Positions 1,992-16,613 of a DNA stretch of 16,613 nt are shown here, one piece after another. The stretch's first letter is position 1, and every line of letters begins with the position of its first letter. The stretch is taken from the NCBI GenBank assembly GCA_041687095.1, contig JAWLCQ010000100.1, forward strand, positions 1-16,613. Reading direction: 5' to 3'. Below the pieces are notes generated by a model. That model made no database searches. It saw only the letters and a list, made by a program, of their open reading frames with translations, and was not told the origin of the DNA. The position numbers and the translations under genes are program-made. This DNA comes from Phycisphaerae bacterium (GTDB lineage Bacteria; Planctomycetota; Phycisphaerae; SM23-33).

Positions 1992-3314
1992 TTATGTCTG
2001 CTTTCCGCGCAGCCGCCGCATGATGGCCATGTACTGCCGTTTACGGGCAGCGAAGGCGGCGTCGTGGTACAGGTCGCCGAACAGGTCGTACAGGCCCCGG
2101 CGGAGCTGCTCGCGCGTCATGCCGCGCGGCTCGTAGGTCACGTCGAACAGCGTGCAGCGGTCCCAGAACGGAGGCGGATCCAGGCGGCCCTCGCGTTGCA
2201 GGCGGGCGTACAGCGGCGTGCCCGGAAAGGGCGTCAGGACCGTCACCTGGATCTCCAGCGGCTCGGCGGCGGCGACGAAACGGCGGATGTCGTCGAAGAC
2301 TTCGGGGGTGTCCCCGTCGAGTCCGACGATGAAGCACGTGTTCACCGTCACGCCCGTGTCCTGGATGCGGCGGACGGCGTCGACGTACCGATCCGCCTGC
2401 CGCGCCTTCCATCCCGTGGACTCCACCCGCTCCAGCCGTTCGCACGACAGGCTCTCCAAGCCGATAAGCAACTGGTAGCACCCGCTCGCCCGCAGGTCGC
2501 GCAGCAACTCGGGCTGATCGGCGACGGAGAGGTCGGTCTCGGCGAACCAGCGGAGGCCCAGCGGGCCGATCCGCTCGATGAACTCGCGCGACCAGCGGGG
2601 ATCGACGAAGAGGTTGTCGTCGGCGAACTCGATAAAGGGCCTCTCCCAGATCTCGCACACCGCATCGAGTTCGCGGTGGACCTGATCCACGGTCTTCTGG
2701 CGGTAGCCCGGCCCGTACAGCCGCGAGCCCGCGCAGAACTCGCAGCAGTGCGGGCACCCGCGCGAGGTCTGCACGGGGATGCGGTTGTAGTTCTCCGGAT
2801 CCAGGAGGTCGAATCGCGGAACGGGCGCGGTCCGCAGGTCGTACGGCTCGCCTCCCTGGCATCCGTAGGTCCGCTGGAGCGTCCCGCGGGCGAGGTCGGT
2901 CATCACGCGGGGCCAGTGGGGTTCCGCTTCCCCGAGGACGACGGCGTCGGCGTGCTGGAGGGCCTCCGCGGGAAGGGCCGTCACGTGCGGCCCGCCCAGG
3001 ATCACCCGCGTGCCCTGGCGGCGGAGGTGGTCGGCGAGGGCGTAGGCCTCGTGGATCTGAGCGGAGTAGGAGGAGATGGCGGCGACGTCGTAGGGGGGGA
3101 GGCGGCGGAGGTTGAGATCGTCGATGTGGGGGATCTCGGCGTAGTCGAGTTCGACGCCGGGGGGCGTGAGGGCGGCGAGGGTGAGGAGCGAGAGGCTCGG
3201 CAGGGAGGCGATGACGTGCCCGCGGGCGAGGAAGCCCGGCAGGGTCACACCCAGCCACGCCAGTTCCGGGTCGATCACCCGCACCCCGCTCATCGCCAGC
3301 AGCCCCAGGTGCAC
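1992..3314 (-). CDS. B12-binding-domain radical SAM enzyme (class B radical SAM), 440 aa.
   Basis: CxxxCxxC cluster in ...TSRGCPHCCEFCAGS.... The N-terminal region is a Rossmann-like B12-binding domain (RVILGGPHVTALPAEAL...). The length is typical of the family. Confidence 0.85.
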   Translation of the reverse strand: MHLGLLAMSGVRVIDPELAWLGVTLPGFLARGHVIASLPSLSLLTLAALTPPGVELDYAEIPHIDDLNLRRLPPYDVAAISSYSAQIHEAYALADHLRRQGTRVILGGPHVTALPAEALQHADAVVLGEAEPHWPRVMTDLARGTLQRTYGCQGGEPYDLRTAPVPRFDLLDPENYNRIPVQTSRGCPHCCEFCAGSRLYGPGYRQKTVDQVHRELDAVCEIWERPFIEFADDNLFVDPRWSREFIERIGPLGLRWFAETDLSVADQPELLRDLRASGCYQLLIGLESLSCERLERVESTGWKARQADRYVDAVRRIQDTGVTVNTCFIVGLDGDTPEVFDDIRRFVAAAEPLEIQVTVLTPFPGTPLYARLQREGRLDPPPFWDRCTLFDVTYEPRGMTREQLRRGLYDLFGDLYHDAAFAARKRQYMAIMRRLRGKQT

Positions 3315-3317
3315 GGT

Positions 3318-3725
3318 TCACCCTCCCCGCGACAGCAGAAGGATCCAGCCCCACACCTGGATCGCCACGCCGAGCGTGACGCAGGAGGCGGGAATTGGAA
3401 ACAGGTACTTGCACGGTTCCCGCCACGCGGAGAGCAGGCACACAAGGGGCATGAGAAGAGCCCCGGCGATCATGGCCAGGCCCCCGACGGGGAGAGCCCA
3501 CGGCGGAAGGAGGCCCAGTCGCGGACCGCACACGCCGTACAGCACATTGATGATCCCCAAGGCGAAGGCCGCCACGTGACCGAGGCGCATCGCCTGCCGA
3601 CGGAAGCTGCCGTATCCGCCCGCCCAGTGGCGGTCGGCGGCCCAGAGCCCGAAGGTCATCCCCAGCAGGGCCCCCAATCCCATCCCGCACCAGCCGACGG
3701 CAATGTTCCACGATGCGACGTTCAT
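3318..3725 (-). CDS. Small integral membrane protein (about 4 predicted TM helices, 135 aa), function unknown. Immediately upstream of and probably co-transcribed with the radical SAM gene.
   Basis: Hydrophobic helices rich in G/A/L/W. Its stop at 3318-3320 lies 3 nt from the radical SAM ATG at 3314. Confidence 0.55.
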   Translation of the reverse strand: MNVASWNIAVGWCGMGLGALLGMTFGLWAADRHWAGGYGSFRRQAMRLGHVAAFALGIINVLYGVCGPRLGLLPPWALPVGGLAMIAGALLMPLVCLLSAWREPCKYLFPIPASCVTLGVAIQVWGWILLLSRGG

Positions 3726-4086: not shown

Positions 4087-4287
4087 TTGAAGCAACTGCA
4101 GCAGAACATGACGATGATCTACTGGAAGGGCGAGACGCACTGGGTAGGCAAACTGCTGGAGCACCCCGAGATCATGACCCAGGGCGAAACGCTGGGGGAA
4201 CTCGAGGAGAACCTCCGAGACGCCTACCGCATGATGGTCCTTGAGGATGTGCCCGAAGACCACCACACGAAGGCCATCGCGATATGA
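4087..4287 (+). CDS. hicB: Short HicB-family (UPF0150/RNase-H-like fold) antitoxin, 66 aa.
   Basis: ...IYWKGETHWVGKLLEHPEIMTQGETLGELEENLRDAYRMMVLED... matches the short HicB pattern (hhhh-dg-W-a-v-elPg-v-tqG-TleEa-eNl-eA). TTG start at 4087 lies 6 nt after a GGAGG at 4076-4080. Internal ATGs at 4108 and 4114 are alternatives. Confidence 0.6.
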   Translation: MKQLQQNMTMIYWKGETHWVGKLLEHPEIMTQGETLGELEENLRDAYRMMVLEDVPEDHHTKAIAI

Positions 4288-4465
4288 AGCGAAAGAGTTC
4301 GTCCACCGCCTCTCCCGGGACGGTTGCGTGCTCCTTCGCTCCGGGGGCAGACATGACATCTACCTCCATCCCAAGACGGGGCGGAAGCAACCGGTTCCCC
4401 GGCACGTGGAGATCGACGACGCCCTTGCACGACACATCCGCAAGTTCCTGGGCCTGGAACCGTAG
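4241..4465 (+). CDS. hicA: HicA-family mRNA-interferase toxin (YcfA-like). The canonical ATG (4284) is out of frame. The body is readable only from TTG 4241 or ATG 4247 inside hicB. Possible frameshifted pseudogene or start-shifted gene.
   Basis: Body ...KEFVHRLSRDGCVLLRSGGRHDIYLHPKTGRKQPVPRHVEIDDALARHIRKFLGL matches the HicA consensus (GSH...HP...vPrH...lkqlgl). The hicB TGA overlaps ATG 4284 in ATGA. A 1-nt indel in the A-run around 4292-4294 separates that ATG from the HicA frame. Confidence 0.55.
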   Translation: MRMCPKTTTRRPSRYEAKEFVHRLSRDGCVLLRSGGRHDIYLHPKTGRKQPVPRHVEIDDALARHIRKFLGLEP

Positions 4466-4621: not shown

Positions 4622-4657
4622 GCTGATAGCTGATAGCTAACGGCGGATGGCTGAGAG
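4622..4657 (+). repeat. Array of 7-bp units GCTGATA GCTGATA GCTAACG GCGGATG GCTGAGA upstream of pspA1.
   Basis: Period-7 repetition read directly from the sequence. The same unit recurs in direct and inverted arrays at 5677-5778. Confidence 0.6.
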
Positions 4658-4731: not shown

Positions 4732-5460
4732 ATGGGGCTGTTTGCACGTCTACACCGCATCACTGTGGGCCGCGTCGAGGCCTTCCTTGCGCGCGCCGAG
4801 GACCCCGAGATCATCTTCCCCCAACTCGTCCGCGAGATGGAGGACCAGTTGCGCCTCGCGACCGACGCCGAGGCCAAGGCCGCCGCGGCCGTCAAGGCCG
4901 CCCAGCGCGACCTCCGCACCGCCGCCGAGAGCGGGCAGCGCATGCACCGCGGGGCCGCCCTCGCCCTCCAGCAGGGCGACGAGGCCACCGCCCGCAAGGC
5001 CCTCGCCGCCCAAATCGACGCCGAACGCTCCGCCGCCCAGGCCCACGACGCCGTCGGCGGCGCCGAGGCCACCCGACTCCAGGCGGAAGGGGCGCGGCAG
5101 CAGATCCAGCGCCAACTGGAGGAGCTGCGCTCCAAGCGCAACGAGATCCTCACCCGCTCCCGCGTCGCCCAGACCCGCCAGAAGATCCAGCGGACCGTCG
5201 GGGGCTCGGCCGGGACGACCGACACCATCCTCGACGCCGTCGCCCGCCTGGAGGCCGGGGTCGAGGAGGTCGAGGCCGAACTGGAGATCCAGTCCCGCCT
5301 CACGGGCGGACCGGCGACGGGCCCGTCGCTGGAGGCCAGGCTCTCGGAACTCGAGGGCCAGGCCCAGATCGAATCCCGCCTCGCCGAGTTGCGGCGGAGC
5401 GTGGAAGGCGAGGGCGACAGCGCGCCCGCGGTGGCGGAAGCGGCATCCGAAACCCAGTGA
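4732..5460 (+). CDS. pspA: PspA/IM30/Vipp1 family protein (phage-shock protein A-like, ESCRT-III superfamily), 242 aa. Paralog 1.
   Basis: N-terminus MGLFARLHRITVGRVEAFLARAEDPE...LVREMEDQL matches the PspA family N-terminal helix (E. coli PspA [27 protein letters not shown]...IQEMEDTL). Long coiled-coil body. GAGGAG RBS lies 7 nt upstream of the ATG. Confidence 0.9.
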   Translation: MGLFARLHRITVGRVEAFLARAEDPEIIFPQLVREMEDQLRLATDAEAKAAAAVKAAQRDLRTAAESGQRMHRGAALALQQGDEATARKALAAQIDAERSAAQAHDAVGGAEATRLQAEGARQQIQRQLEELRSKRNEILTRSRVAQTRQKIQRTVGGSAGTTDTILDAVARLEAGVEEVEAELEIQSRLTGGPATGPSLEARLSELEGQAQIESRLAELRRSVEGEGDSAPAVAEAASETQ

Positions 5461-5509: not shown

Positions 5510-5676
5510 GTGTCGTGGCCAGCCACGGTCCTGGGAATAGGGGGACCGGGCGCTTCGGTGACGGAGCGCACCCCCCTGATGCAGTCCGGGGGGCGTTGGG
5601 CGCCGGGGCGCGTTACAACCCGTGCGGAAACAACATGAACGGTCCAGCAGCCACGAGAGCAGAGTTGAAGCCTTTG

Positions 5677-5778
5677 GCTATCAGCTATCAGCTGTCAGCT
5701 AACAGCTTTCAGCAGACTTGTCTGGATTCTCCTCGCTCCTCGCTGATCGCTGATCGCTGATCGCTGAAAGCCGATAGC
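5677..5778. repeat. Large imperfect palindrome built from heptamer arrays. (TCAGCTN)x5 at 5677-5716 and (GCTGATC)x3-5 at 5742-5778 face each other across a 25-bp centre.
   Basis: Units were read directly. The left array is the reverse complement of the right array and of the 4622-4657 array. Confidence 0.6.
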
Positions 5779-5996: not shown

Positions 5997-6668
5997 ATGT
6001 CCATCTTTGAACGCATTCAACGCATCGCCAAGGCCAACGTGAACTGGCTGCTCGACCGGGTCGAGCCGCCCGAGCAGGAACTCGAGTCCCGCATCCGTGA
6101 GCTGGAACAGGCCCTTCGGGAGGGCCGCGAGTGCGCCGCCACCTACGGGGCCACCTTCCGCCGCATGGAACGCGAGCAGGAGCAGCTCCGCCTGCAGCAG
6201 GCCCAGTGGCAGCAGCGGGCGCAGCAGGCGGTGGCGGGCGGGGACGACGACACCGCCCGCCGCGCCCTGGGCGAGAAGGTCCGCCTGGGCGAGCGCGTGG
6301 CCAACCTCACCCCCGGGATCGAGCAGGGCCGCCGAACGTACGACCAACTCCGCGACAACCTCGCCAAGCTCCAGGACCAGCTCCGCGGGGCGAAGCTCAA
6401 GCTCGAGGAACTCCGCTCCCGCCGCCGCACCGCCGAAGCCCAGAAGGCCTTCGGGCAGCACCTCGACGGGGCGCTGGGCGCCGCGGACGGGGCCGCCTTC
6501 GAACGCCTCGAGGACACCGTCCTTCAGACCGAGGCCGAGGTCGAAGTCGCCGACGAGATCCGCGGAACCGCCCTGCTGGACGCGGACCTGGAGCAACGCT
6601 CGCGCGACCTGCAGGTCGACGCCGAACTCCGCGCCCTCAAGGCCGAGTTCGACGGGGACGAACGCTGA
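5997..6668 (+). CDS. PspA/IM30/Vipp1 family protein, paralog 2 (about 223 aa). A different subfamily from paralogs 1 and 3.
   Basis: MSIFERIQRIAKANVNWLLDRVEPPE... is the PspA N-terminal amphipathic helix motif, followed by a coiled-coil body. The ATG is at ORF-track 5979+18. The in-frame GTG at 5979 is a less likely start. Confidence 0.85.
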   Translation: MSIFERIQRIAKANVNWLLDRVEPPEQELESRIRELEQALREGRECAATYGATFRRMEREQEQLRLQQAQWQQRAQQAVAGGDDDTARRALGEKVRLGERVANLTPGIEQGRRTYDQLRDNLAKLQDQLRGAKLKLEELRSRRRTAEAQKAFGQHLDGALGAADGAAFERLEDTVLQTEAEVEVADEIRGTALLDADLEQRSRDLQVDAELRALKAEFDGDER

Positions 6669-6681
6669 AAGGACTCGTGCC

Positions 6682-7362
6682 ATGTGGGACGTCATCACCG
6701 CCGCTTTCCTGCCCGTGAACCTGGTGTTCACCGTGCTGCTGCTCGCGATGGTGCTGTATTGGCTCGCGGTCATCCTCGGGGCGCTGGACACGGAGTTCCT
6801 CAACGTGGACCTCCATGGCGGGGCGGACGCGGGGGCTGACCTCGACGTCCACGCCGACGTCGACCTGGACGGGGACGCCGACGCGGGCTTCGCCCACACG
6901 TGGATGGGGCACATGCTGGCGTTCTTCTACGTCGGGGAAATCCCCGTCATGATCCTCGTCAGCATCCTCATCCTGAGCATGTGGACGATCTCCGTGATCG
7001 CCAACCACTACCTCAACCCGACGGGCTCGCTGCTGCTCTGGACGCCGATCGTCGCGGCCAACCTGCTGGCGAGCCTGCTGGTGCTCAAGGTGGTGGGGCG
7101 CCCCTTCCAGCGGGTCTTCGCGGCGCTGAACACCGACGCCAACGCCCCCCGCCCCGTCATCGGGCGGATCGGGATCGTGCTCACCACGCAGGTGTCCGAA
7201 CGGATCGGACAGGTGGAGGTGCCCGAGCGGGGCGCCCCGCTGCTGCTCAACGCAATCACCGAGGATGGCCGCGTCCTGCGTAAGGGGGATGAGGCCGTAG
7301 TGGTCCGCAGGGACAACGAGCGGGGCGTGTACATCGTCGCCCCCGTAGAACTGGAGACATGA
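6682..7362 (+). CDS. yqiJ: NfeD-like membrane protein (YqiJ/YuaF-type flotillin partner), 226 aa. N-terminal TM helices, an acidic Asp/His-rich loop and a C-terminal NfeD OB-fold beta-barrel.
   Basis: C-terminal ...GRIGIVLTTQVSERIGQVEVPERGAPLLLNAITEDGRVLRKGDEAVVVRRDNERGVYIVAPVE fits the NfeD short-form beta-barrel pattern. It starts 13 bp after the pspA2 stop. Its stop overlaps the flotillin ATG in ATGA (7359-7362). Confidence 0.7.
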   Translation: MWDVITAAFLPVNLVFTVLLLAMVLYWLAVILGALDTEFLNVDLHGGADAGADLDVHADVDLDGDADAGFAHTWMGHMLAFFYVGEIPVMILVSILILSMWTISVIANHYLNPTGSLLLWTPIVAANLLASLLVLKVVGRPFQRVFAALNTDANAPRPVIGRIGIVLTTQVSERIGQVEVPERGAPLLLNAITEDGRVLRKGDEAVVVRRDNERGVYIVAPVELET

Positions 7363-9425
7363 ACATGATTCTGGCAGCCTTAGCATCGGACGCAATCCTC
7401 TTCGCCTTCGCCCTCGGGGCGGTCATCGTCATCGGCGTCCTGGCGCTGATCGTCAAGTGTTACCGCAAGGTCTCCCAGGGCGAGGCCCTCATCCGCAACG
7501 GGCTGGGGGGGACCAAGGTGAGCTTCTCGGGCATGGTCGTCATCCCCGTCCTGCACAAGGCCGAGTACATGGACATCTCGGTCAAGCGGATCGAGATCGA
7601 CCGCCGCGCCATCCAGGGCCTCATCTGCAAGGACAACCTCCGCGCCGACATCGTCGTCGCCTTCTTCGTGCGGGTGAACAAGACCGTCGACGACGTCATC
7701 AAGGTCGCCCAGTCCCTCGGCTGCGCGCGGGCGAGCGACTCCAAGGCCCTCGTCGAACTCTTCGACGCCAAGTTCTCCGAGGCCCTCAAGACCGTCGGGA
7801 AGCAGTTCGACTTCGCCGAGCTGTACATCAACCGCGTCCGCTTCCGCGAGCAGATCCTCGACATCATCGGGACCGATCTGTCGGGCTACGCCCTCGAGGA
7901 CGCCGCCATCGACTACCTCGAACAGACCGACAAGAAGCTCCTCAATCCCGACAACATCCTCGACGCCGAGGGCATCAAGAAGATCACCGTCCTGACGGCC
8001 GAGCAGTTCGAACTCGCCAACGCCCGCGAGCGTGAGAAGGACAAGACGATCAAGAAGCAGGACGTCGAGGCCGGGGAGGCCATCCTCGAACTGCAGCGCC
8101 AATACGCCGAGGCCGAGGCCAAGCAGAAGCGCGAGATCGCCGAGGTCCAGGCCCGCGAGGAGTCCTCCGCCCACCAGGTGCAGGCCCAGGAGCGTCAAAA
8201 GGCCGAGAAGGCCCGCATCGCCGCCGACGAGGACATCGCCGTCGCCGAGGAGAACCGCCTCCGCCAGATCATCGTCGCCGCCAAGAACAAGGAACGCACC
8301 GAGGCCGTCGAGATCGAACGCGTCGAACGCGAACGCGGCCTGGAGGCGACCGAGCGCGAGCGCCTCGTCTCCCTCGCCCAGCTCGCCAAGGACAAGGCCG
8401 TCGAGTCCGAGCGCAAGGAACTGCAGGACGTCGTCCGCACCCGCGTCGAGGTCGAACGCGGTGTCGCCGTCGAGGAGGAACGCATCAAGGACACCCGCGA
8501 GTTCGCCTCCGCCGACCGCTCCAAGCGCGTCCAGATCACCAAGGCCGAAGAGGAAGCCGAGCAGGCCCTCGTCAAGGACATCAAGCAGGCCGAGGCCGCC
8601 CGCAAGGCCGCCGAGCACTACGCCCAGCAGCAGCTCATCGACGCCCAGGCCCACCTGGAGGCGTCCGAGAAGAACGCCGACGCCAAGAAGGCCCTCGCCG
8701 CCGCCGGGGTCAAGGAATCCGCCGTCGAAGGCATCGCCGAGGCGGAGGTCCTCGAGGCCAAGGCCCGCGCCTTCCGCGCCCAAGGCCAGGTCGAGGCCGA
8801 CATCCTCGCCCTCAAGGCCGACGCCAAGGAGAAGGACGGGACCGCCGAGGCCACCGTCGCCCAACGCAAGTACGCCGCGGAGGCCGAGGGCATCACCGCC
8901 AAGGCCGAAGCGATGAAGCTCTTCAACGACGCGGGCAAGGACCACGAGGAGTTCAAGCTCCGCCTCCAGAAGGACCTCGAAGTCGAACTCGCCGAGATCC
9001 GCATCCGCAAGGACGTCGCCGCCGAACAGGCCAAGCTCGTGGGCGAGGCCCTCAAGAGCGCCAAGATCGACATCGTCGGGGGCGAGAACCGCTTCTTCGA
9101 GCGGCTCGTCAACTCCATCACCACCGGAAAGATGGTCGACCGCGCGGTCCAGAACAGCGAGGTCCTGCAGGACTTCCGCGCGGCGATCGTGGGGGCGGAC
9201 GGGCAGGAGACGATGACCCGCATCCGCGAGATGGTCGGGCGCTTCGGGCTCTCCAGCGAGGACGTCAAGAACCTCACGGTCTCAGCGCTGATGATGAAGC
9301 TCATCGGGCTCGCCCAGGACCAGGAGAAGGGCCTCCTCCGCAACCTCCTCGACGCCGCCCACGCCGCCGGGATCTCCAACCACCCCGTCGCGACGTACCT
9401 CGCCCCGGCGGTGGAGACCAAGTAG
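7359..9425 (+). CDS. yqiK: Flotillin-like SPFH/band-7 protein of the YqiK type, 688 aa, with an unusually long Glu/Ala/Lys/Arg-rich coiled-coil region.
   Basis: N-terminal TM segment then ...YRKVSQGEALIRNGLGGTKVSFSGMVVIPVLHKAEYMDISVKRIEIDR...DIVVAFFVRVNKTVDDVIKVAQSLG. This aligns closely with E. coli YqiK (LYRRASAEQAFVRTGLGGQKVVMSGGAIVMPIFHEII...VDVVVAFFVRVKPSVEGIATAAQTLG). It is translationally coupled to the upstream NfeD gene. Confidence 0.9.
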   Translation: MNMILAALASDAILFAFALGAVIVIGVLALIVKCYRKVSQGEALIRNGLGGTKVSFSGMVVIPVLHKAEYMDISVKRIEIDRRAIQGLICKDNLRADIVVAFFVRVNKTVDDVIKVAQSLGCARASDSKALVELFDAKFSEALKTVGKQFDFAELYINRVRFREQILDIIGTDLSGYALEDAAIDYLEQTDKKLLNPDNILDAEGIKKITVLTAEQFELANAREREKDKTIKKQDVEAGEAILELQRQYAEAEAKQKREIAEVQAREESSAHQVQAQERQKAEKARIAADEDIAVAEENRLRQIIVAAKNKERTEAVEIERVERERGLEATERERLVSLAQLAKDKAVESERKELQDVVRTRVEVERGVAVEEERIKDTREFASADRSKRVQITKAEEEAEQALVKDIKQAEAARKAAEHYAQQQLIDAQAHLEASEKNADAKKALAAAGVKESAVEGIAEAEVLEAKARAFRAQGQVEADILALKADAKEKDGTAEATVAQRKYAAEAEGITAKAEAMKLFNDAGKDHEEFKLRLQKDLEVELAEIRIRKDVAAEQAKLVGEALKSAKIDIVGGENRFFERLVNSITTGKMVDRAVQNSEVLQDFRAAIVGADGQETMTRIREMVGRFGLSSEDVKNLTVSALMMKLIGLAQDQEKGLLRNLLDAAHAAGISNHPVATYLAPAVETK

Positions 9426-9447: not shown

Positions 9448-9637
9448 AAATCCGAAATCCGAAACACGAAGTCCGAAACAAATTCGAAACGGCAAATTCA
9501 AATGACAGAAACTAAGGAACACCCCAGCGGGCGCCCACAGGCTTGTACAGCGGGGTTCGCTTGCGAGCGTCCGTTTTGAACATTTGAGTTTCGTGCTTTG
9601 AATTTGTTTCGGATTTCGTGCTTCGGATTTCGGATTT
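9448..9637. repeat. AT-rich inverted-repeat element. 57-nt arms (9448-9504 and 9581-9637, about 47/57 identical as reverse complements) are each built from 8 heptamer units (AAATCCG / CGGATTT) and flank a 76-nt centre. Candidate MITE, structured RNA, RNase III processing site or regulator binding array. It ends 26 nt before the giant gene's ATG.
   Basis: Arms were aligned by hand after reverse-complementing. The period-7 internal structure was read directly. The AT content is strikingly higher than the 70% GC surroundings. Confidence 0.7.
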
Positions 9638-9662: not shown

Positions 9663-12600
9663 ATGACTGAGCAGAAGGAACAACAGGCGTCCCCGCCTCC
9701 GCAGACACAGCTCGAAGGTGGGACGTACGAGATCATCCGCCGGCGACTGGCGGAGCGGGGGCAGGAGCTGCGCCAGCGGATCGAGCAGCTCAACGACGCC
9801 CGCAAGGACGTCTTCGGGACCATCGAGACCCAGCTCACCGCCAGCGAGTCAATCTCCACCGACAACAACTGCGTCCCGCGGGACATGGTGTCCGTGGGGC
9901 GCAGCTTCCTCTTCGGGTACAACGTCTTCATCGGCCTGCGGGCCCAGACCGTGCTGGAGGATGTCTTCGCCCAGTACGAATGGGCCGATGGCGCCTTCCG
10001 CCGCCAGGAGCTGACGCTCCTGCGCGGGGAGCGGTTCGAGACCGACTTCCGCAACCTCTACAAGTACTACCGCCACACCACCTTCGCGAAGTTCCACGAG
10101 GCGGGCCCGCACCTGTACCTCGTCTTCCGCACGGGCAAGGCCGTCACCGACGTCAAGACCTTCAAGTTCCTCCTCCGCGGGGAGGCCCTGGAGTACGTCG
10201 ACAACCGCAGCGACCACGAGTACGCCTTCCCCCCCCAGCAGGAGTTCGACTGGACGCGGGTGACGCACGACATGCAGCGCAGCGGCCGCTGCCCCCACGT
10301 CTCCATCGCCGACCGCGTCTTCGTCGAGACGATGGGCGGGGACCTGACGATCAAGATCGAGGACAACACCGAGAGCGGGGAGGGCATCTACTCCGAGCCC
10401 GTGGACAACCCCGACCAGACCCTCGACGACGCCGAGATGTACTACGCCCTCGTCGGGAACCTCATCGTCCTCAAGATCCGCCCCTACCAGGAGAAGGCCT
10501 GGCGGCACATCGTGTACAGCGAGAAGGCCCAGCAGGCCGTCCGCATCGACTCCATCGCCGACGCCTGCGTCCTGCTGCCCGACGGGCACGGGCTGATCTT
10601 CCCCCGAGGGTGCTACCTCCAGACGGGCGAGCTGAAGCTCTTCGAGATCGAGATCGAGGACATGGTCTTCGATCGCCGCATCGCCAGCCCCAACGGGGAG
10701 GACTACCTCTACCTCTTCTACAACCGCGACAGCGGCACGTACGTCCTGCTGGGCTACAACGTCATCGCCCAGCGCGTCGCCACCCCCATCGTCTGCAACG
10801 GGTACTCGCTCTTCGACGACGGGACGCTCCTGTACTTCCGCGCGGGCACGCAGCCCCAGAAGCACCACACGCTCCAGGTCTGGCAGACGCCCTTCCGCGG
10901 GCCCGACTTCCGCCAGGAGGTCCGCACCGACTCGCACCTCTACCGCATCGGCAACAAGGACATCGTCCGCTGCATGGCCGAGTGCCACGAACTGCTCGTC
11001 CTCCTGGGCAAGGAGGACACCTACGCCAACCTCTACGTCGACATCGCCCGCACCGCGCAGAACATCCTCGACGGGTACTTCTGGCTCAACAGCCCCGACA
11101 CCTTCCGCCTCGACGAACCCCTCCGCGCCCTGCAGGAGGCCGCCGCCGGGGCCATCGCCGAGTTCGAGAAGGTCACCCGCACCCAGCGCGACACCCGCCA
11201 GCGCATCGCCGCCGCCCGCGACCGCGTCCGCAAGGCCATCGCCTCCATCGACTACTACCACCTCGACGACATCGGCACCTTCGTCCGCCTCCTCGCCGAA
11301 CTCCGCGCCCTCCGCGGCGAGGTCATCGGCCTCAAGGACCTGCGGTACGCGGACCTGCCCCTCGTCGAGGCGCTGGAGGCCGAGGTCGCCCAGCACGCCG
11401 AGACGCTCTCCGCCCGCTGCGTCGAGTTCCTGCTGCAGCCCGAGGCGCTGGCGCCGTACGTCCAGCGGATCGAGGCCCACCAGGCGGCGATCCCCGAACT
11501 CGCCAAGGTCACCGACGCCAAGGCCCTCGCCGAGCAGCTCGCCGCCGCCACCGCGGAGCTGGAGATGCTCATCGAGATCGTCAGCAACCTCAAGATCGAC
11601 GACGCCACGCAGACGACGGCGATCATCGACGCCATCTCGCTCGTCCTCGCCCAGCTCAACAAGGCCAAAAGCGCCCTCAAGAACCGCACCTCCGCCCTCG
11701 CCGCCAGCGAAGGCGCCGCCGAGTACGCCTCCCAGACCCAGCTCATCGACCAGGCCGTCATCAACTACCTCGACGTCTGCGATGCCCCTGACCGCTGCGA
11801 CGAGTACCTCGGGAAGGTCATGGTCCAGCTCGAGACCCTCGAGTCCCGCTTCGCGGACTTCGACGACTTCGTCGTCCAACTCGCCCAGAAGCGCGAGGAG
11901 GTCTACGGGGCCTTCGAGTCCCGCAAGGCCCAGCTCGTCGAGGACCGCAACCGCCGCTGCTCCGCCCTCCTGTCCGCCGCCCAGCGCGTCCTCAAGGGCG
12001 TCCGCAACCGCGCCGCCGCCCTCGCCACCCTCAACGAGATCAACGCCTACTTCGCGTCCGACCTCATGATCGAACGCGTCCGCGAAACCGTCCGCCAACT
12101 CCGCGCCCTGGGCGACACCGTCAAGGCCGACGACATCGACTCGCAGCTCAAGAGCCTCCAGCAGGACTCCGCCCGCCAGCTCAAGGACCGCCAGGCCCTC
12201 TACGAGGACGGGGAGAGCGTCATCCGCTTCGGGCGCCACCGCTTCAGCGTCAACCACCAGAACCTCGAACTCACCACCGTCCTCCGCGACGGGGAGCTGT
12301 ACCTGCACCTCACGGGCACGGGGTTCTTCGAGCGGGTCACCGACCCCGACCTGCTCGCCACCCGCGACACGTGGGGCCTGGAGTGCGTGAGCGAGAGCCC
12401 CGCGGTCTACCGCTCCGAGTACCTCGCCTACCTCCTGCTCCGCGACGCGCAGGAGCGGGGCGAGGCGGCCGTCGAGGAACTCGCGGGGCTCGACGACGAC
12501 GCGCTGCTCCAGCGGGTGCAGGCGTTCATGGCCCCGCGGTACGCGGAGGGGTACGTCAAGGGCGTCCACGACGCCGACGCCGCCCTCCTCCTCCGCGCGC

Positions 12601-15044
12601 TGCTGCACCTGCGGGCGTCGGTGGGGCTCCTCGCCTACGCCCCCCCCGCCCGCGCCCTGGCGAGCGTGTACTGGCGATGGCAGGAGGACGGGGAGGCGAA
12701 GGCCCGGCTCTCCGCGCGTTTGGCGGCGGCGGGGAGGGCCCGCACGCTCTTCGCCGACCGGCGGATCGACGGGCCCTACATCGCCGAACTCCGCGACGCC
12801 CTCGCGGGCTTCGCCGAGCGGACGAGGCTCTTCGACGCCCAGCACGTCGCCCCCGCGGCCGAGTACCTCTACCACGCCCTCGCCGCCAACGGGTCGGGCC
12901 CGTCCGCCCCCGCGCCCTTCGCGCTCAGCGCGGTGGCGGCGGGGATCCGCAAGCGGTTCGAGTCGCACCTGCGGCACAGGAAGCACGATTCGCACTTCAC
13001 CTCGGCGGCCGAGGCGCTGGCGGACGACCTGGTGAACGGGTATCGGCTGCGCCGGGAGTGGGTGGCGTCGTACCTCGGCGCACATGGGAGCGCGGAGGAG
13101 CACGAGTTCGCCGACGAAGTCGCCGCCGCCCTCCTCGACGGGCAGTCCCCCCCCGCCGTCATCGACGTCCCCCTGGCGGTGGACCTGGAGGGCCTGGCGG
13201 GATCGCACCCGCGGATCCAGGACGGCAAGTGCCGGGTGAACTACGGGCACTTCCTCACCCGCCTGCAGCACCACGAGCGGGAGGTGGCCCCGAAGTTCCG
13301 GGCGTACGTGGAGGCGAAGAAGCGCCTGCTGGCGGAGGCCTCGGAGGCGATGCGCCTCGACGAGTACCAGGCGCGGGTGCTGACGACGTTCGTCCGCAAC
13401 AAGCTCATCGACAAGGTCTTCCTGCCGCTGGTGGGCGACAACCTCGCCAAGCAGATCGGGACCGTGGGGCAGGACAAGCGGACGGACCGCCAGGGGTTGC
13501 TGCTGCTGATCAGCCCCCCGGGGTACGGCAAGACGACGCTGATGGCGTACGTCGCCAACCGCCTGGGGCTGATCTTCGTGAAGGTCAACGGGCCCGCCAT
13601 CGGCCACCGCGTGACGAGCCTCGACCCCTCCGAGGCGCCCAACGCCTCCGCCCGGTCCGAGCTGGAGAAGATCAACCTCGCCTTCGAGATGGGCGACAAC
13701 GTGATGATCTACCTGGACGACATCCAGCACTGCCACCCCGAGCTGCTCCAGAAGTTCATCCCCCTCTGCGACGCCACCCGCCGCGTCGAGGGCGTGTACA
13801 AGGGGCGGACGAAGACCTACGACCTGCGCGGCAAGCGCGTGTGCGTGGTGATGGCCGGGAACCCCTTCACCGAGAGCGGGGAACGCTTCCAGGTCCCCGA
13901 CATGCTCACCAACCGCGCCGACACCTACAACATCGGCGACATCGTGGGCGACAACCGAAGCGAGTTCGAACTCAGCGTCATCGAGAACTGCCTCACCAGC
14001 AACCCCATCCTCGCCCCACTGATGAACCGCTCGCAGGAGGATGTCTACGCCCTCATCCGCCTCACCGAGACGGGCGAGCGGGAGGGCATCGAGTTCGAGG
14101 GCGCCTACTCCCCCGACGAACTCAACGAGTACGTCTCCGTCCTCCGCAAGCTCTTCATCGTCCGCGACGTGGTCCTCAAGATGAACGCCCAGTACATCGC
14201 GTCGGCCGGGACCGCCGACGAGTACCGCACCGAACCCCCCTTCCTCCTCCAGGGCTCGTACCGCAACATGAACCGCATCGCCTCGCGGGTCCTGCCCGTG
14301 ATGAACGACGCGGAGCTGTGGACGCTCATCGAGTCCAGCTACGAACAGGACGCCCAGACCCTCACCACCTCCGCCGAAGCGAACCTGCTCCGCTTCCGCG
14401 AACTCGTCGGCCGACAGACCCCCCAGCAGGCCGCCCGCCTCGAGGAGATCCGCAAGACCTTCCGCCGCAACCTGCTGCTGGGCGGGGAGAGCGACGACAA
14501 GTTCGGGACCATGATCCGCCAGCTCAACGCGTTCTCCGCGGGGCTGGACTCCATCCGCGACGTGCTCGCCGGGGGGGTCGGAGCCCTGGCCAAGGCGAAG
14601 ACGCCCGAGGCGCCCGACCCGCTCCGCCAGACCGCCGACGCCGTCCTCGGCCGCATGGATCGCATCGTCACCGAACTCCGCGAGCAGCGCAAGGCCCTGA
14701 TCGAGCACGACTCCGCCCAAAGCGCCGCCGACGCCGCCCACGCCGCCGCCGGACTCACGGGCATCCTCGAGGAGCAGTTCCGCACGATGGAGACGTGGCT
14801 GCGACCCGTCGCCCGGACGGAGGCGGGACGCGCCCAGTACGCCAACGACCTCGTCCGCCGCTTCGAGGACATGATCGACGGGTACTCCCGCCTCGTGGGC
14901 ATCCTCAAGGAGCGGCAGGCGGGGCACGACGCCGACGAGGCCGACGTGGAGATCACGGTGCGGAGCGGGGATGCGGATCCGCAGGAACCGCCCGATGCCG
15001 AAACGGACGTGACCGAGAACGACGCGAGCCACGAGCAGACGTAA
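9663..15044 (+). CDS. Giant 1793-aa soluble protein with one MoxR/AAA_5-type AAA+ ATPase module in the C-terminal third. Walker A GYGKTT is near residue 1287, Walker B DD at 1352-1353, and a sensor-1 Asn near 1400. The long N-terminal region is mixed beta-rich and coiled-coil, and the tail is acidic. No named family recognised.
   Basis: ...LLLISPPGYGKTTLMAYVANRLG..., ...VMIYLDDIQHCHPELLQKFIPLCDATRRVEGVYKGRTKTYDLRGKRVCVVMAGNPFTESGERFQVPDMLTNRADTYNI... parallels MoxR (hhhhDEINRa-p--qsaLLeamqe...atqNP...lp-a-lDRF). GAGGA RBS lies 5 nt upstream of ATG 9663. The ORF-track start 9618 is an upstream extension reading through the IR element. Strong coding periodicity over 5.4 kb. Confidence 0.85.
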   Translation: MTEQKEQQASPPPQTQLEGGTYEIIRRRLAERGQELRQRIEQLNDARKDVFGTIETQLTASESISTDNNCVPRDMVSVGRSFLFGYNVFIGLRAQTVLEDVFAQYEWADGAFRRQELTLLRGERFETDFRNLYKYYRHTTFAKFHEAGPHLYLVFRTGKAVTDVKTFKFLLRGEALEYVDNRSDHEYAFPPQQEFDWTRVTHDMQRSGRCPHVSIADRVFVETMGGDLTIKIEDNTESGEGIYSEPVDNPDQTLDDAEMYYALVGNLIVLKIRPYQEKAWRHIVYSEKAQQAVRIDSIADACVLLPDGHGLIFPRGCYLQTGELKLFEIEIEDMVFDRRIASPNGEDYLYLFYNRDSGTYVLLGYNVIAQRVATPIVCNGYSLFDDGTLLYFRAGTQPQKHHTLQVWQTPFRGPDFRQEVRTDSHLYRIGNKDIVRCMAECHELLVLLGKEDTYANLYVDIARTAQNILDGYFWLNSPDTFRLDEPLRALQEAAAGAIAEFEKVTRTQRDTRQRIAAARDRVRKAIASIDYYHLDDIGTFVRLLAELRALRGEVIGLKDLRYADLPLVEALEAEVAQHAETLSARCVEFLLQPEALAPYVQRIEAHQAAIPELAKVTDAKALAEQLAAATAELEMLIEIVSNLKIDDATQTTAIIDAISLVLAQLNKAKSALKNRTSALAASEGAAEYASQTQLIDQAVINYLDVCDAPDRCDEYLGKVMVQLETLESRFADFDDFVVQLAQKREEVYGAFESRKAQLVEDRNRRCSALLSAAQRVLKGVRNRAAALATLNEINAYFASDLMIERVRETVRQLRALGDTVKADDIDSQLKSLQQDSARQLKDRQALYEDGESVIRFGRHRFSVNHQNLELTTVLRDGELYLHLTGTGFFERVTDPDLLATRDTWGLECVSESPAVYRSEYLAYLLLRDAQERGEAAVEELAGLDDDALLQRVQAFMAPRYAEGYVKGVHDADAALLLRALLHLRASVGLLAYAPPARALASVYWRWQEDGEAKARLSARLAAAGRARTLFADRRIDGPYIAELRDALAGFAERTRLFDAQHVAPAAEYLYHALAANGSGPSAPAPFALSAVAAGIRKRFESHLRHRKHDSHFTSAAEALADDLVNGYRLRREWVASYLGAHGSAEEHEFADEVAAALLDGQSPPAVIDVPLAVDLEGLAGSHPRIQDGKCRVNYGHFLTRLQHHEREVAPKFRAYVEAKKRLLAEASEAMRLDEYQARVLTTFVRNKLIDKVFLPLVGDNLAKQIGTVGQDKRTDRQGLLLLISPPGYGKTTLMAYVANRLGLIFVKVNGPAIGHRVTSLDPSEAPNASARSELEKINLAFEMGDNVMIYLDDIQHCHPELLQKFIPLCDATRRVEGVYKGRTKTYDLRGKRVCVVMAGNPFTESGERFQVPDMLTNRADTYNIGDIVGDNRSEFELSVIENCLTSNPILAPLMNRSQEDVYALIRLTETGEREGIEFEGAYSPDELNEYVSVLRKLFIVRDVVLKMNAQYIASAGTADEYRTEPPFLLQGSYRNMNRIASRVLPVMNDAELWTLIESSYEQDAQTLTTSAEANLLRFRELVGRQTPQQAARLEEIRKTFRRNLLLGGESDDKFGTMIRQLNAFSAGLDSIRDVLAGGVGALAKAKTPEAPDPLRQTADAVLGRMDRIVTELREQRKALIEHDSAQSAADAAHAAAGLTGILEEQFRTMETWLRPVARTEAGRAQYANDLVRRFEDMIDGYSRLVGILKERQAGHDADEADVEITVRSGDADPQEPPDAETDVTENDASHEQT

Positions 15045-15087
15045 GTGGCACCGTGCCCCGACGCTTGCGTCTCAGGGAAGCAAGTGA

Positions 15088-15239
15088 CGTGGGTGCCACG
15101 GCTGCGCCGTTTGCAGCCGTGCTGGCGTGGGTGCCACGGCTGCGCCGTTTGCAGCCGTGCTGGCGTGGGTGCCACGGCTGCGCCGTTTGCAGCCGTGCTG
15201 GCGTGGGTGCCACGGCTGCGCCGTTTGCAGCCGTGCTGG
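15088..15239 (+). repeat. Four perfect tandem copies of a 38-bp unit cgtgggtgccacggctgcgccgtttgcagccgtgctgg. Each contains a 9-bp-stem hairpin (cacggctgc-gccgttt-gcagccgtg). A degenerate inverted copy and three 21-bp repeats (15269-15331) follow.
   Basis: Copies were compared base by base. 38 is not a multiple of 3 and there are no spacers, so this is neither a coding repeat nor a CRISPR array. Confidence 0.8.
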
Positions 15240-15423
15240 CGGGAAGGACACGGCTGCAGACAGCGCAGCCGTGGCACCCGCAGTAGAAGCCGTGGCACCC
15301 GCAGTAGAAGCCTGGGCGCCCGCAGTGGAAGGCTGGGTGCCGTGGTTTGCGGAGCGCAGCGGAGCAACCACGTCAAACCGACGTGGCAGCCCGAGCCAGG
15401 CGGTACCGTAGTGGCATGCAACG

Positions 15424-15570: not shown

Positions 15571-16248
15571 ATGGGATTCATTGATAGACTCAAGCGAATC
15601 ACCCTCGGACGGGTGGAGGCGTTCCTGGCCGCCCAGGAGACCCCCGAAACCGTCCTGCCCCAACTCGTCGAGGAGCTGGCCGCCAAGGTCCGCCAATCCG
15701 CCGATGCCGAGGCCAAGGCCCTCACCGCCGTCAAGGCCGCCCAGCGCCGCTGCGATGAGGCCCGCGGGCGGTCCCAGCGGATGGGCCAGGGGGCCCACTT
15801 GGCGCTGCAGGCGGGGGACCCCGACCTCGCCCGCCGCGCCCTCGCCGCCCAACTCGACGCCGAACGCGAACTCGACGCCCACCTCCCCCCCCTCGCCGCC
15901 GCCGAGTCCGCCCTGGAGTCGGCGAGGGCGGCGAGGCGGCAGTTGGGCGAGACGCTCGAGCAGGTGAAGGCGCGGCGGGACGAGCTGATCGCCCGCGCCA
16001 AGGCCGCCCGCGCCCGCCAGACCGCCCCCCCCCAGCGTGGATCCATCCTCGACGCCGTCGCCCGCATGGAGGAGAAGGTCGGACACGCCGAGGCCCACGC
16101 CGACGCCCGCGACGAAGTCGCCCGCACACTGGGCCCCGACGTGGTCGAACGCGACCTCGAAGAACTCCGCCGCAACGCCGAAGTCGAACGCCGCCTCCAG
16201 GAACTCAAGGCCCGCCTCGGTGGGCAGGGGCAGGGGGAGCAGGCGTAG
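15571..16248 (+). CDS. PspA/IM30/Vipp1 family protein, paralog 3 (225 aa). Closely related to paralog 1.
   Basis: MGFIDRLKRITLGRVEAFLAAQETPETVLPQLVEELAAKV... parallels paralog 1 (MGLFARLHRITVGRVEAFLARAEDPEIIFPQLVREMEDQL). ATG 15571 was chosen over the ORF-track start 15445, whose N-terminal extension is not PspA-like. Confidence 0.85.
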   Translation: MGFIDRLKRITLGRVEAFLAAQETPETVLPQLVEELAAKVRQSADAEAKALTAVKAAQRRCDEARGRSQRMGQGAHLALQAGDPDLARRALAAQLDAERELDAHLPPLAAAESALESARAARRQLGETLEQVKARRDELIARAKAARARQTAPPQRGSILDAVARMEEKVGHAEAHADARDEVARTLGPDVVERDLEELRRNAEVERRLQELKARLGGQGQGEQA

Positions 16249-16306
16249 GGCCTCACCGGCGGATCGCAACGGACGCCAAAGGGCAAGCCACTGCTGACCC
16301 GTCCCG

Positions 16307-16446
16307 CGCGCCTGCGCCAGCGCGTCTGCGGCGGCGCGTCTGCGGCGGCGCGTCTGCGGCGGCGCGTTTGCGGCGGCGCGTTTGCGGCGGCGCGTCTGCG
16401 GCGGCGCGTTTGCGGCGGCGCATCTGCGGCAAGGCGTCTGCTGCGG
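16307..16446. repeat. About 9-10 tandem copies of a 14-bp unit cgcg(t/c)ttgcggcgg immediately 3' of pspA3. A GGGGGTC-tccc-GACCCCC hairpin follows at 16445-16462.
   Basis: Units were counted directly (16321-16432 are near-perfect, with degenerate copies at both ends). 14 is not a multiple of 3. Confidence 0.8.
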
Positions 16447-16613
16447 GGGTCTCCCGACCCCCCACCTCCTGCGCCGGGGGTCTCCTGACCTCGTTGTTCT
16501 ACACATCTCGGCCTCGCGGGGCGGCAGGGACCCGATTCCGGGCGTCGGTCCGACAGCCCCGACAGGGGCGCGGGACAGTAGCCGGGGGTGGAGCGCAGCG
16601 GAACCCCCGGAAG

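What the first reader, a model, noticed from the sequence alone, without database searches (positions are those of the whole stretch)
9663..15044. 1793-aa orphan protein with a single embedded MoxR/AAA_5 ATPase and no recognisable partner domains
MoxR-class ATPases are normally about 300-aa stand-alone chaperone-like proteins paired with VWA partners. Here one such module (P-loop near residue 1287, DD 1352-1353, AGNP sensor near 1400, and a TNRADTYNI arginine-finger region) is buried in a roughly 1800-aa polypeptide. The N-terminal 550 residues are beta-rich with an internal duplication hint (FLFGYNVFIGL / VLLGYNVIAQRV). The middle part is a coiled-coil or helical region of about 700 residues, and the tail is acidic. 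No TM segment is present. This resembles a bacterial midasin or dynein-like mechanoenzyme. The single-ring AAA module on a long lever could pull on or disassemble polymeric membrane scaffolds.
Basis: partly seen in the sequence, partly recalled or inferred. Interest (0 to 1): 0.8.

Follow-up and report, generated by a model that had tools for sequence, protein, structure and literature searches.

The report
Giant flotillin-partnered MoxR-type ATPase
The 1,793-residue gene is real but not an orphan: it belongs to a widespread, experimentally unstudied bacterial family (labelled 'DNA repair ATPase') that joins a beta-propeller, a spectrin-like rod and one MoxR-type ATPase, and it almost always sits next to flotillin-type membrane-scaffold genes, so it is a candidate motor for remodelling those scaffolds.

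The parts
9663..15044 (+). Gene for the 1,793-aa DUF3686/DUF7902/AAA+ protein (called BIG here), stop codon included
   Evidence: ORF and translation; GC3 0.97; Pfam matches; full-length homologues
9717..9815 (+). N-terminal helix, residues 19-51
   Evidence: AF2 model me17e82d2fe74, pLDDT about 82-94
9831..10892 (+). Beta-propeller, residues 57-410 (about 28 strands, probably 7 blades); core of Pfam DUF3686 (residues 35-473)
   Evidence: AF2 secondary structure. Foldseek hits to CyRPA, Kelch KLHDC3, Cdh1 WD40 and prolyl-oligopeptidase propellers at probability 1.0. Pfam DUF3686 E 5.5e-181
10935..12191 (+). Helical rod, residues 425-843, with helices up to 58 residues; spectrin-repeat-like; contains Pfam DUF7902 (residues 594-676, nt 11442-11690)
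12219..12335 (+). Small beta element, residues 853-891
   Evidence: AF2; 18% of columns >=95% conserved
12411..13130 (+). Helical domain, residues 917-1156; the least conserved folded part
   Evidence: AF2; 5% of columns >=95% conserved
13383..14012 (+). Pre-AAA helix plus MoxR-class AAA+ alpha/beta core, residues 1241-1450; a beta-hairpin precedes the sensor-1 strand
13512..13538 (+). Walker A, SPPGYGKTT (residues 1284-1292)
   Evidence: Invariant in A1; PPG[YFW]GKT[TS] present in 76/76 orthologues
13704..13721 (+). Walker B, MIYLDD (residues 1348-1353); DD instead of the usual DE
   Evidence: D1352 and D1353 invariant; DD[ILVM][QH]H present in 76/76
13854..13865 (+). Sensor 1, AGNP (residues 1398-1401)
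   Evidence: 76/76 orthologues
13911..13922 (+). Putative arginine finger, NRAD (residues 1417-1420)
   Evidence: 72/76 orthologues; R1418 invariant in A1. The role is assigned by position relative to the MoxR pattern (inference)
14013..14582 (+). Lid and conserved C-terminal helical domain, residues 1451-1640 (includes the YRTEPPFLLQGSYRNMNRI motif)
   Evidence: AF2; invariant columns
14583..15041 (+). Lineage-specific C-terminal helical extension (residues 1641-1757) and acidic disordered tail (residues 1758-1793)
   Evidence: Low pLDDT; 60-84% gaps across orthologues; charge count
7359..9425 (+). YqiK-type flotillin (688 aa): N-terminal TM, divergent SPFH domain, E/K/A-rich coiled coil, conserved C-terminal domain
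   Evidence: hhalign against E. coli YqiK: probability 100%, E 3.1e-41. TM at the N-terminus. 2 of 24 orthologues hit Band_7. Directly upstream of BIG in 61/63 loci
6682..7362 (+). YqiJ/NfeD-like 3-TM membrane protein (226 aa); its stop overlaps the flotillin start (ATGA)
   Evidence: Pfam YqiJ_N E 8.5e-4. BLASTP against E. coli YqiJ E 2e-5. Start and overlap. Present in 54/63 loci
4732..5460 (+). pspA1 (PspA/IM30, bacterial ESCRT-III family)
   Evidence: Pfam PspA_IM30 E 1.5e-26; TIGR02977 E 3e-29
5997..6668 (+). pspA2 (PspA/IM30); ends 13 nt before the yqiJ-like start
   Evidence: Pfam E 5.3e-31; TIGR02977 E 1e-30
15571..16248 (+). pspA3 (PspA/IM30), downstream of BIG; a paralogue of pspA1
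   Evidence: Pfam E 1.1e-21; TIGR02977 E 2e-20; 70-74% nt identity to pspA1. The same position is held by a PspA gene in L001, L057 and L082

Best explanation
BIG is the ATPase subunit of a conserved three-gene membrane module: a YqiJ/NfeD-like protein, a YqiK-type flotillin and BIG. In this organism three PspA (ESCRT-III-type) paralogues extend the module. SHOWN: BIG is a cytoplasmic protein made of a beta-propeller, a spectrin-repeat-like rod, a helical domain and one MoxR-class AAA+ module with intact, conserved nucleotide-binding motifs. Its gene is almost always immediately downstream of, and co-oriented with, the flotillin pair. INFERRED: like other MoxR ATPases, the AAA+ modules form a hexameric ring. 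The roughly 1,200-residue arms (rod plus propeller) project from the ring and dock on the cytoplasmic flotillin assembly, and where PspA is present also on PspA polymers. ATP binding and hydrolysis are then converted into assembly, remodelling or dismantling of these scaffolds as part of a membrane-stress or membrane-maintenance response. The fused propeller would take the place of the separate VWA adaptor that classical MoxR systems use. The invariant DD Walker B suggests a slow or switch-like ATPase rather than a fast unfoldase.
Against: No experiment on any family member was found. Physical interaction, oligomeric state and ATPase activity are all untested. Gene adjacency does not say which protein is the substrate or which way the reaction runs (assembly or disassembly). 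The loop after beta-2 (AIGHxVTSLDP) has no aromatic pore-loop residue, so a threading mechanism is doubtful. Walker B is DD, not DE, which could mean very low turnover. No VWA partner, the usual MoxR adaptor, is present. The 237-nt and 526-nt repeat-filled gaps on either side of BIG in this window leave co-transcription with its neighbours unproven here. pTM values of 0.49-0.59 mean the relative domain arrangement is not reliable.
Confidence: 0.55

Rival explanations
1. BIG is specifically the bacterial functional analogue of Vps4. Its substrate is PspA/ESCRT-III polymers, which it recycles. Flotillin/YqiJ would only be the membrane platform that recruits it.
For: Three PspA paralogues flank the gene here, and the same order is kept in L082, L057 and L001. 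CesT_Tir-PspA precedes the module in 17 Bacteroidota loci, and a PspA gene lies in the same cluster on pQBR103. Reviews state that bacteria lack a Vps4-like ATPase for PspA (PMC7619361; PMC10936438). Archaeal Vps4 loci also carry SPFH and beta-propeller proteins.
Confidence: 0.15
2. BIG is what its database name says, a DNA repair ATPase (SMC/Rad50/SbcC-like).
For: The names 'DNA repair ATPase' (NCBI) and 'ATPase involved in DNA repair' (Pfam DUF3686). A weak PADLOC hit of the helical rod to JetC/MukB-like (E 3e-4). A LexA/CI-like XRE-S24 regulator sits next to the operon in Bacteroidota.
Against: The ATPase is AAA+ of MoxR class, not an ABC/SMC head. The JetC hit covers only coiled coil. No nuclease, DNA-binding or recombination gene is a conserved neighbour; the conserved neighbours are membrane proteins. 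No paper supports the name. The name probably derives from coiled-coil similarity (inference).
Confidence: 0.03
3. The module is a membrane-associated conflict or anti-phage system. BIG would be a large sensor NTPase that triggers membrane remodelling or damage.
For: Large ATPases with propeller 'sensor' domains are common in defence systems (own knowledge). A HicA toxin gene lies just upstream in the window. The distribution is patchy and multi-phylum at 40-60% identity, including megaplasmids such as pQBR103. There is a CI-like regulator in Bacteroidota.
Against: No PADLOC model matches at a meaningful level. There is no match in 50,697 phage records, and only 13 of 72,556 plasmid records match, mostly chromids or chromosomes. 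No effector domain is present. The conserved partners are housekeeping-type flotillin, NfeD and PspA.
Confidence: 0.07
4. BIG is a nucleotide-gated structural adaptor. The AAA+ module acts as an ATP-binding oligomerisation switch with little or no turnover, and the protein serves mainly as a long spacer or scaffold linking flotillin domes to other cytoplasmic structures.
For: Invariant DD Walker B instead of DE. DnaA uses DD-I-Q and works as a slow switch (own knowledge, not tested). Spectrin-like rod. No aromatic pore loop.
Against: Sensor 1 and the arginine finger, which matter for hydrolysis rather than binding, are conserved in 72-76 of 76 orthologues. The AAA core is under the strongest constraint.
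Confidence: 0.12

Closest known systems
The 'beta-propeller + coiled-coil + AAA+ ATPase' of the CesT/Tir-PspA-YqiJ/YuaF-flotillin operon (Ravi et al., mSystems 2024, PMC11237479; example context Dokdonia donghaensis ANH61663.1); Pfam DUF3686 + DUF7902; named 'DNA repair ATPase' by NCBI
   Same: Same family and same gene order: YqiJ-like, then TM-Band7-coiled-coil-flotillin, then propeller-coiled-coil-AAA+. Same Pfam domains.
   Different: This Phycisphaerae-type locus lacks the CesT_Tir gene and the divergent XRE-S24 regulator of the Bacteroidota version. It carries two PspA genes upstream and a third downstream. BIG here has a lineage-specific C-terminal extension of about 150 residues with an acidic tail.
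MoxR AAA+ ATPases (CbbQ, NorQ, RavA)
   Different: Six times larger, with the ATPase at the C-terminal end of a propeller-rod fusion. No VWA/MIDAS partner gene. Walker B is DD. Only 13-17% identity to CbbQ/NorQ. A sequence search with the module finds only 889 cluster representatives in 1.84 billion, which is essentially the family itself.
Vps4 / CdvC (ESCRT-III disassembly AAA ATPase)
   Same: An AAA+ motor encoded next to ESCRT-III-superfamily genes (PspA), with a substrate-recognition module N-terminal to the ATPase. The Walker A to beta-2 sequence 'PPGyGKT...NGP' resembles classical AAA.
Midasin / dynein heavy chain
   Different: Those proteins have six concatenated AAA modules in one chain, whereas BIG has one. 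Their scores are no better than generic AAA+.
E. coli yqiJ-yqiK and B. subtilis yuaF-floT flotillin operons
   Same: The two upstream genes are homologues of YqiJ and YqiK in the same order.
   Different: The E. coli operon has no BIG gene downstream. BIG-associated flotillins are about 130 residues longer and only about 30% identical to YqiK.

Membership tests
DUF3686/DUF7902 'DNA repair ATPase' family (propeller-rod-AAA+ of flotillin operons) | Pfam PF12458 (DUF3686) match above the gathering score | tested here: met
   602.4 bits against a cutoff of 25; E 5.5e-181; residues 35-473 cover profile positions 1-448 of 448
DUF3686/DUF7902 'DNA repair ATPase' family (propeller-rod-AAA+ of flotillin operons) | Pfam PF25472 (DUF7902) in the helical rod | tested here: met
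   90.8 bits against a cutoff of 26; E 6.4e-26; residues 594-676
DUF3686/DUF7902 'DNA repair ATPase' family (propeller-rod-AAA+ of flotillin operons) | Single C-terminal AAA+ module with the family-invariant motifs PPGYGKTT, DDIQH, AGNP and NRAD | tested here: met
   All four are present at 1285-1292, 1352-1356, 1398-1401 and 1417-1420. They occur in 72-76 of 76 orthologues
DUF3686/DUF7902 'DNA repair ATPase' family (propeller-rod-AAA+ of flotillin operons) | Gene immediately downstream of a YqiJ/NfeD-like and YqiK-type flotillin pair | tested here: met
   In the window: 6682-7362, 7359-9425, then 9663-15044. In 61/63 loci
MoxR class of AAA+ ATPases | AAA+ fold closest to solved MoxR members | tested here: met
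MoxR class of AAA+ ATPases | Pre-sensor-1 beta-hairpin | tested here: met
   The AF2 model shows two strands (fragment residues 225-230 and 233-238, which are protein residues 1374-1387) between Walker B and the sensor-1 strand, pLDDT about 85-90. This is a prediction, not an experimental structure
MoxR class of AAA+ ATPases | Helix-2 insert | tested here: inconclusive
   A conserved 18-residue loop (GPAIGHxVTSLDPxEAPN) lies between beta-2 and helix 2, but the model shows no hairpin there
MoxR class of AAA+ ATPases | Canonical Walker B hhhhDE | tested here: not met
   DD in 76/76 orthologues
MoxR class of AAA+ ATPases | Co-encoded VWA/MIDAS partner protein; stand-alone protein of about 300 aa | tested here: not met
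   No VWA hit in any window gene. No further conserved neighbour family appears in 80 loci. The protein is 1,793 aa
MoxR class of AAA+ ATPases | Hexameric ring assembly | not testable with these tools
   No multimer prediction or experiment was available
Vps4 / classical-clade AAA | N-terminal MIT domain, and a classical AAA core lacking a pre-sensor-1 hairpin | tested here: not met
Midasin / dynein | Six tandem AAA+ modules in one polypeptide | tested here: not met
   One AAA/AAA_5 match only, at residues 1280-1403. The rest of the chain is propeller and helices
SMC/Rad50/SbcC-type DNA repair ATPases | ABC-type head split by a coiled coil; nuclease or kleisin partner | tested here: not met
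   The ATPase is a contiguous AAA+ module. The only similarity is coiled coil (JetC, E 3e-4). No such partner is among the conserved neighbours
Known anti-phage defence systems (PADLOC) | Significant match to a defence-system protein model | tested here: not met
   Only E 3e-4 and 4e-4 partial hits for BIG, and none for the two membrane partners

The most novel reading that the evidence does not exclude
BIG is the long-sought ATP-driven recycling engine for bacterial membrane scaffolds. In this reading it is a MoxR-class motor, convergent with archaeal and eukaryotic Vps4, that uses its propeller-tipped spectrin-like arms to open or dismantle flotillin (SPFH) domes and PspA/ESCRT-III polymers. 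The combination of ESCRT-III, SPFH, beta-propeller and AAA+ would then have been assembled independently in bacteria and archaea.
Probability: 0.25. Interest if true: 0.85.

Novelty: new member of a known kind. Interest (0 to 1): 0.5.

Why it matters
Bacterial flotillins and PspA/Vipp1 (ESCRT-III) form large, stable polymers on membranes. Current reviews state that bacteria lack a Vps4-like ATPase to regulate them (PMC7619361; PMC10936438). How SPFH cages are opened or turned over is also unknown. This family has an intact and very highly conserved ATPase site, and it is tied to flotillin genes in more than 95% of informative loci across about ten phyla. That makes it the most obvious candidate for such a regulator, and it makes the question testable, because homologues exist in tractable organisms: Pseudomonas fluorescens pQBR103, Proteus mirabilis, Vibrio campbellii, Streptomyces, Hymenobacter and Bacteroides. 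The work also shows that the database name 'DNA repair ATPase' has no support and should not be propagated.

Tried and rejected
(1) 'Orphan' was rejected by homology searches.

(2) Sequence-level internal duplication in the propeller was tested by local self-alignment against 300 shuffles and is not significant.

(3) Sequence and profile searches of the PDB for a solved relative find only a 38-residue Walker A to beta-2 similarity to p97/VAT/RuvB, and no structure of the family.

(4) Clathrin and IFT-A 'protocoatomer-like' top Foldseek hits were rejected as global matches (TM about 0.1, rmsd above 30 A). The helices are long and spectrin-like, not solenoid.

(6) Defence-system membership: PADLOC was negative and phages gave no match.

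(7) The acidic tail is not a family feature (8/76).

(8) Genes lying between flotillin and BIG in some Bacteroidota loci are variable lipoproteins or small TM proteins and are not conserved.

(9) The promoter/terminator scan and Rfam were uninformative.

(10) Look-up of the window's own contig failed, so the organism is inferred only from its nearest relatives (Phycisphaerae/Sedimentisphaerales).

(11) The AFDB50 fold library was unavailable.

(12) Literature searches for DUF3686, PF12458, 'DNA repair ATPase' + flotillin, and MoxR + flotillin found no experimental study.
Full report
OBSERVATION. The window is about 68% G+C. A + strand ORF opens at GTG 9618. The ATG at 9663, preceded by 'gagga', gives a 1,793-residue product ending at the stop 15042-15044. 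Homologue N-termini align with this ATG. GC at codon positions 1/2/3 is 0.69/0.41/0.97. This frame is therefore the coding one, and the 1,727-codon antisense ORF is the usual high-GC artefact. No 19-residue window reaches TM-like hydrophobicity (maximum 1.59). The last 39 residues hold 14 D/E and 1 K/R.

NOT AN ORPHAN. Pfam matches DUF3686 'ATPase involved in DNA repair' over residues 35-473 (E 5.5e-181, full profile length). It also matches DUF7902 over 594-676 (E 6.4e-26) and, more weakly, AAA_5 and AAA over 1280-1403 (E about 7e-6, above their cutoffs). A search of 5.8 billion proteins returned 5,438 hits at E<=1e-5 among the 8,000 candidates scored. The top 120 are full length (about 1,750-1,890 aa), 52-63% identical, and are named 'DNA repair ATPase' or 'MoxR-like ATPase' by their sources. 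The hosts are Planctomycetota (Phycisphaerae, Pirellulales), Bacteroidota, Verrucomicrobiota, Desulfobacterota, Clostridia, Lentisphaeria and Chitinispirillaceae. Other searches add Acidobacteriota, Actinomycetota, Deinococcus and Gammaproteobacteria. The ATPase module alone finds 359 cluster representatives (50% identity clusters) at E<=1e-30 and only 889 at E<=1e-3 among 1.84 billion. The module is therefore well separated in sequence from other AAA+ families. Full-length representatives are 1,590-2,036 aa with the module at about residues 1,200-1,660.

ARCHITECTURE. Two AlphaFold2 models were built from 60-sequence alignments. Residues 1-1190 gave mean pLDDT 83.1. They comprise:
- a disordered N-terminus;
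- a helix at 19-51;
- about 28 beta-strands at 57-408;
- long helices (up to 58 residues) at 425-843;
- a small beta element at 853-891;
- a helical domain at 917-1156.

By sequence, the only similarity to solved structures is a 38-residue Walker A to beta-2 stretch shared with p97/VAT/RuvB. The two halves of the propeller show no significant sequence self-similarity (z = 0.1), so the 'duplication hint' reflects structural blades at most.

CONSERVATION. In 76 full-length orthologues taken from the 80 loci, the motifs occur as follows:
- PPG[YFW]GKT[TS]: 76/76
- DD[ILVM][QH]H: 76/76
- AGNP: 76/76
- [LM]xNRAD: 72/76

The AAA core and the helix before it have 43-45% of columns at least 95% conserved. 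The propeller has 14%, the rod 11% and the 917-1156 domain 5%. Residues 1641-1793, including the acidic tail, are mostly absent outside Planctomycetes, and the tail is acidic in only 8 of 76 orthologues. The protein is thus not a decayed pseudo-ATPase. It does, however, universally have DD rather than DE in Walker B, and the loop after beta-2 (AIGHxVTSLDP) carries no aromatic residue. From my own knowledge, DnaA also uses DD-I-Q in Walker B and works as a slow switch. This is a lead, not a test.

GENOMIC CONTEXT. On the + strand of the window the genes are:
- pspA1, 4732-5460
- pspA2, 5997-6668
- a 3-TM YqiJ-like gene, 6682-7362
- a 688-aa TM plus coiled-coil protein, 7359-9425, whose start overlaps the previous stop (ATGA)
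- BIG, 9663-15044
- pspA3, 15571-16248

The 688-aa protein escapes Pfam and NCBIfam, but a profile of 24 orthologues aligns to E. coli YqiK flotillin with probability 100%, E 3.1e-41, 30% identity over 391 columns. Two orthologues hit Band_7 directly, and the profile touches the SPFH protein QmcA. The 226-aa protein aligns to E. coli YqiJ (E 2e-5; YqiJ_N E 8.5e-4).

Across the 80 loci, 63 have at least 3 kb upstream of BIG. Of these, 61 carry the flotillin gene directly upstream on the same strand (median gap 174 nt), and 54 carry the YqiJ-like gene. An unsupervised clustering of all flanking ORFs found only three other recurrent families:
- PspA, in 21 of 81 loci;
- a CesT_Tir_1 protein, in 17 loci (E 8e-54);
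- a divergently transcribed HTH_XRE + Peptidase_S24 regulator, in 17 loci.

The last two are in Bacteroidota. No VWA, nuclease or other enzyme recurs. The closest complete genome (L082) has the same order of PspA, PspA, YqiJ, (small Band_7), flotillin, BIG, PspA. Sulfidibacter has only the trio. Pseudomonas fluorescens plasmid pQBR103 has PspA, rhomboid, DUF2491, DUF350, DUF1190, glutathionylspermidine synthase, a hypothetical protein, an SPFH protein and then the 'DNA repair ATPase'. There is no homologue in 50,697 phage records, and only 13 of 72,556 plasmid records match, mostly chromids or megaplasmids. PADLOC gives nothing meaningful.

WHAT IS ALREADY KNOWN. Ravi et al. [quoted passage not shown] They note that abbreviated versions without PspA are more widespread. 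[quoted passage not shown] That is this family and this operon. I found no paper mentioning DUF3686, PF12458, or 'DNA repair ATPase' together with flotillin, and no experimental work. A 2025 review states that a Vps4-like ATPase 'appears absent in bacteria' (PMC7619361). Makarova et al. 2024 confine vps4 + ESCRT-III systems to archaea and eukaryotes, while noting SPFH and beta-propeller proteins in archaeal Vps4 loci.

MECHANISM. Shown: the domain composition; the MoxR-class fold; the intact and strongly constrained nucleotide site; cytoplasmic location (no TM); obligate adjacency to a YqiJ/YqiK pair whose bulk is predicted to be cytoplasmic (a single N-terminal TM followed by KCYRK); and facultative adjacency to PspA. 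Inferred: hexamerisation through the AAA+ module, as in CbbQ, NorQ and RavA (established knowledge of the class); arms of rod plus propeller that engage the flotillin assembly and/or PspA polymers; and nucleotide-driven remodelling of those scaffolds, with the fused propeller replacing the VWA adaptor of classical MoxR systems. Because flotillin is the near-universal neighbour and PspA is not, I rank 'flotillin/NfeD-coupled remodeller' (0.55) above 'PspA-specific Vps4 analogue' (0.15). The direction of the reaction (assembly or disassembly) cannot be decided from sequence. The DD Walker B and the non-aromatic pore loop argue against a fast threading unfoldase and keep a 'nucleotide-gated adaptor' reading alive (0.12). 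The 'DNA repair' label has no support (0.03). A defence role is unlikely (0.07).

VERDICT. The protein is a new member, in a Phycisphaerae-type operon variant with three PspA genes and no CesT/Tir, of a known, widespread, computationally described but experimentally uncharacterised family. Interest is moderate (0.5). It would not surprise a specialist who knows the 2024 paper, yet it points to a concrete and tractable candidate for an open question in bacterial membrane biology.

LIMITS. The structure models rest on alignments of sequences 50-67% identical to the query. pTM values are 0.49 and 0.59, so inter-domain geometry is unreliable. Blade number is estimated from strand counts. No multimer prediction was possible. 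The AFDB library was unavailable. The source organism could not be looked up.

Noticed in passing
window 4259-4465 (+), with an overlapping ORF at about 4102-4287 (+): A HicA toxin-like ORF (Pfam HicA_toxin E 2.8e-10) is preceded by an overlapping 61-aa ORF that looks like a HicB antitoxin N-terminus (no Pfam hit; resemblance from memory). Both lie in a lower-GC stretch (about 0.64) just upstream of pspA1.
   Followed up: partly
window 9448-9504 and 9581-9637: A 57-nt inverted repeat (86% complementary, 76-nt spacer) built from CGAAATC/CGAAAC-like units fills most of the 237-nt gap between the flotillin gene and BIG. It could be a REP/MITE-like element or a large RNA hairpin. Rfam gives no hit.
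   Followed up: partly
window 15047-15335: A 38-nt tandem repeat in 5 copies (15047-15274, 82-99% identical) has an inverted partner at 15249-15279. It is followed by three copies of a roughly 21-nt unit 'gccgtggcacccgcagtagaa'. Together they occupy the 526-nt gap between the BIG stop and pspA3.
   Followed up: no
window 16278-16473: A 14-nt tandem repeat (GCGCGTCTGCGGCG-like) of about 14 copies lies downstream of pspA3. It creates spurious ORFs on both strands.
   Followed up: no
window 4622-4652 and 5669-5699: An inverted pair of GCTGATAGCTGATAGCT-type short-repeat tracts brackets pspA1 (I20). Intergenic regions of this genome seem rich in short tandem heptamer or hexamer tracts.
   Followed up: no
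window 4732-5028 versus 15571-15867: pspA1 and pspA3 share 70-74% nucleotide identity over their first 300 nt or so (D6 and D12). They are relatively recent paralogues placed on either side of the flotillin-ATPase core. pspA2 is more divergent.
   Followed up: partly
Bacteroidota loci, for example L063:5522-5914 (+) and L025:3871-4665 (-): In 17 loci the module is preceded by a CesT_Tir_1 gene (PF22550, E 8e-54) and a divergently transcribed HTH_XRE + Peptidase_S24 (LexA/CI-like, self-cleaving type) regulator. This hints at stress-inducible control. Both are absent from the window.
   Followed up: partly
L082:7229-7801 (+): The closest complete-genome relative carries an extra 190-aa Band_7 gene between the YqiJ-like and flotillin-like genes. 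The window has no counterpart.
   Followed up: no
L084 (Pseudomonas fluorescens SBW25 plasmid pQBR103, record 85112-97641): On this well-studied megaplasmid the SPFH-ATPase pair is fused to the polyamine-type PspA operon: PspA, rhomboid, DUF2491, DUF350, DUF1190 and glutathionylspermidine synthase. This makes it a tractable experimental system.
   Followed up: no
window 3318-3725 (-) and 572-1621 / 1992-3314 (-): The - strand carries a small hydrophobic ORF with no family match (GC3 0.81), a CDF cation-efflux gene and a B12-binding radical SAM gene. None is conserved next to the module elsewhere.
   Followed up: no
loci L011 and L031: These are the only two loci with ample upstream sequence that lack the flotillin pair next to BIG: a Desulfobacteraceae MAG and a Bacteroidia MAG. 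Whether the partners are encoded elsewhere in those genomes was not checked.
   Followed up: no
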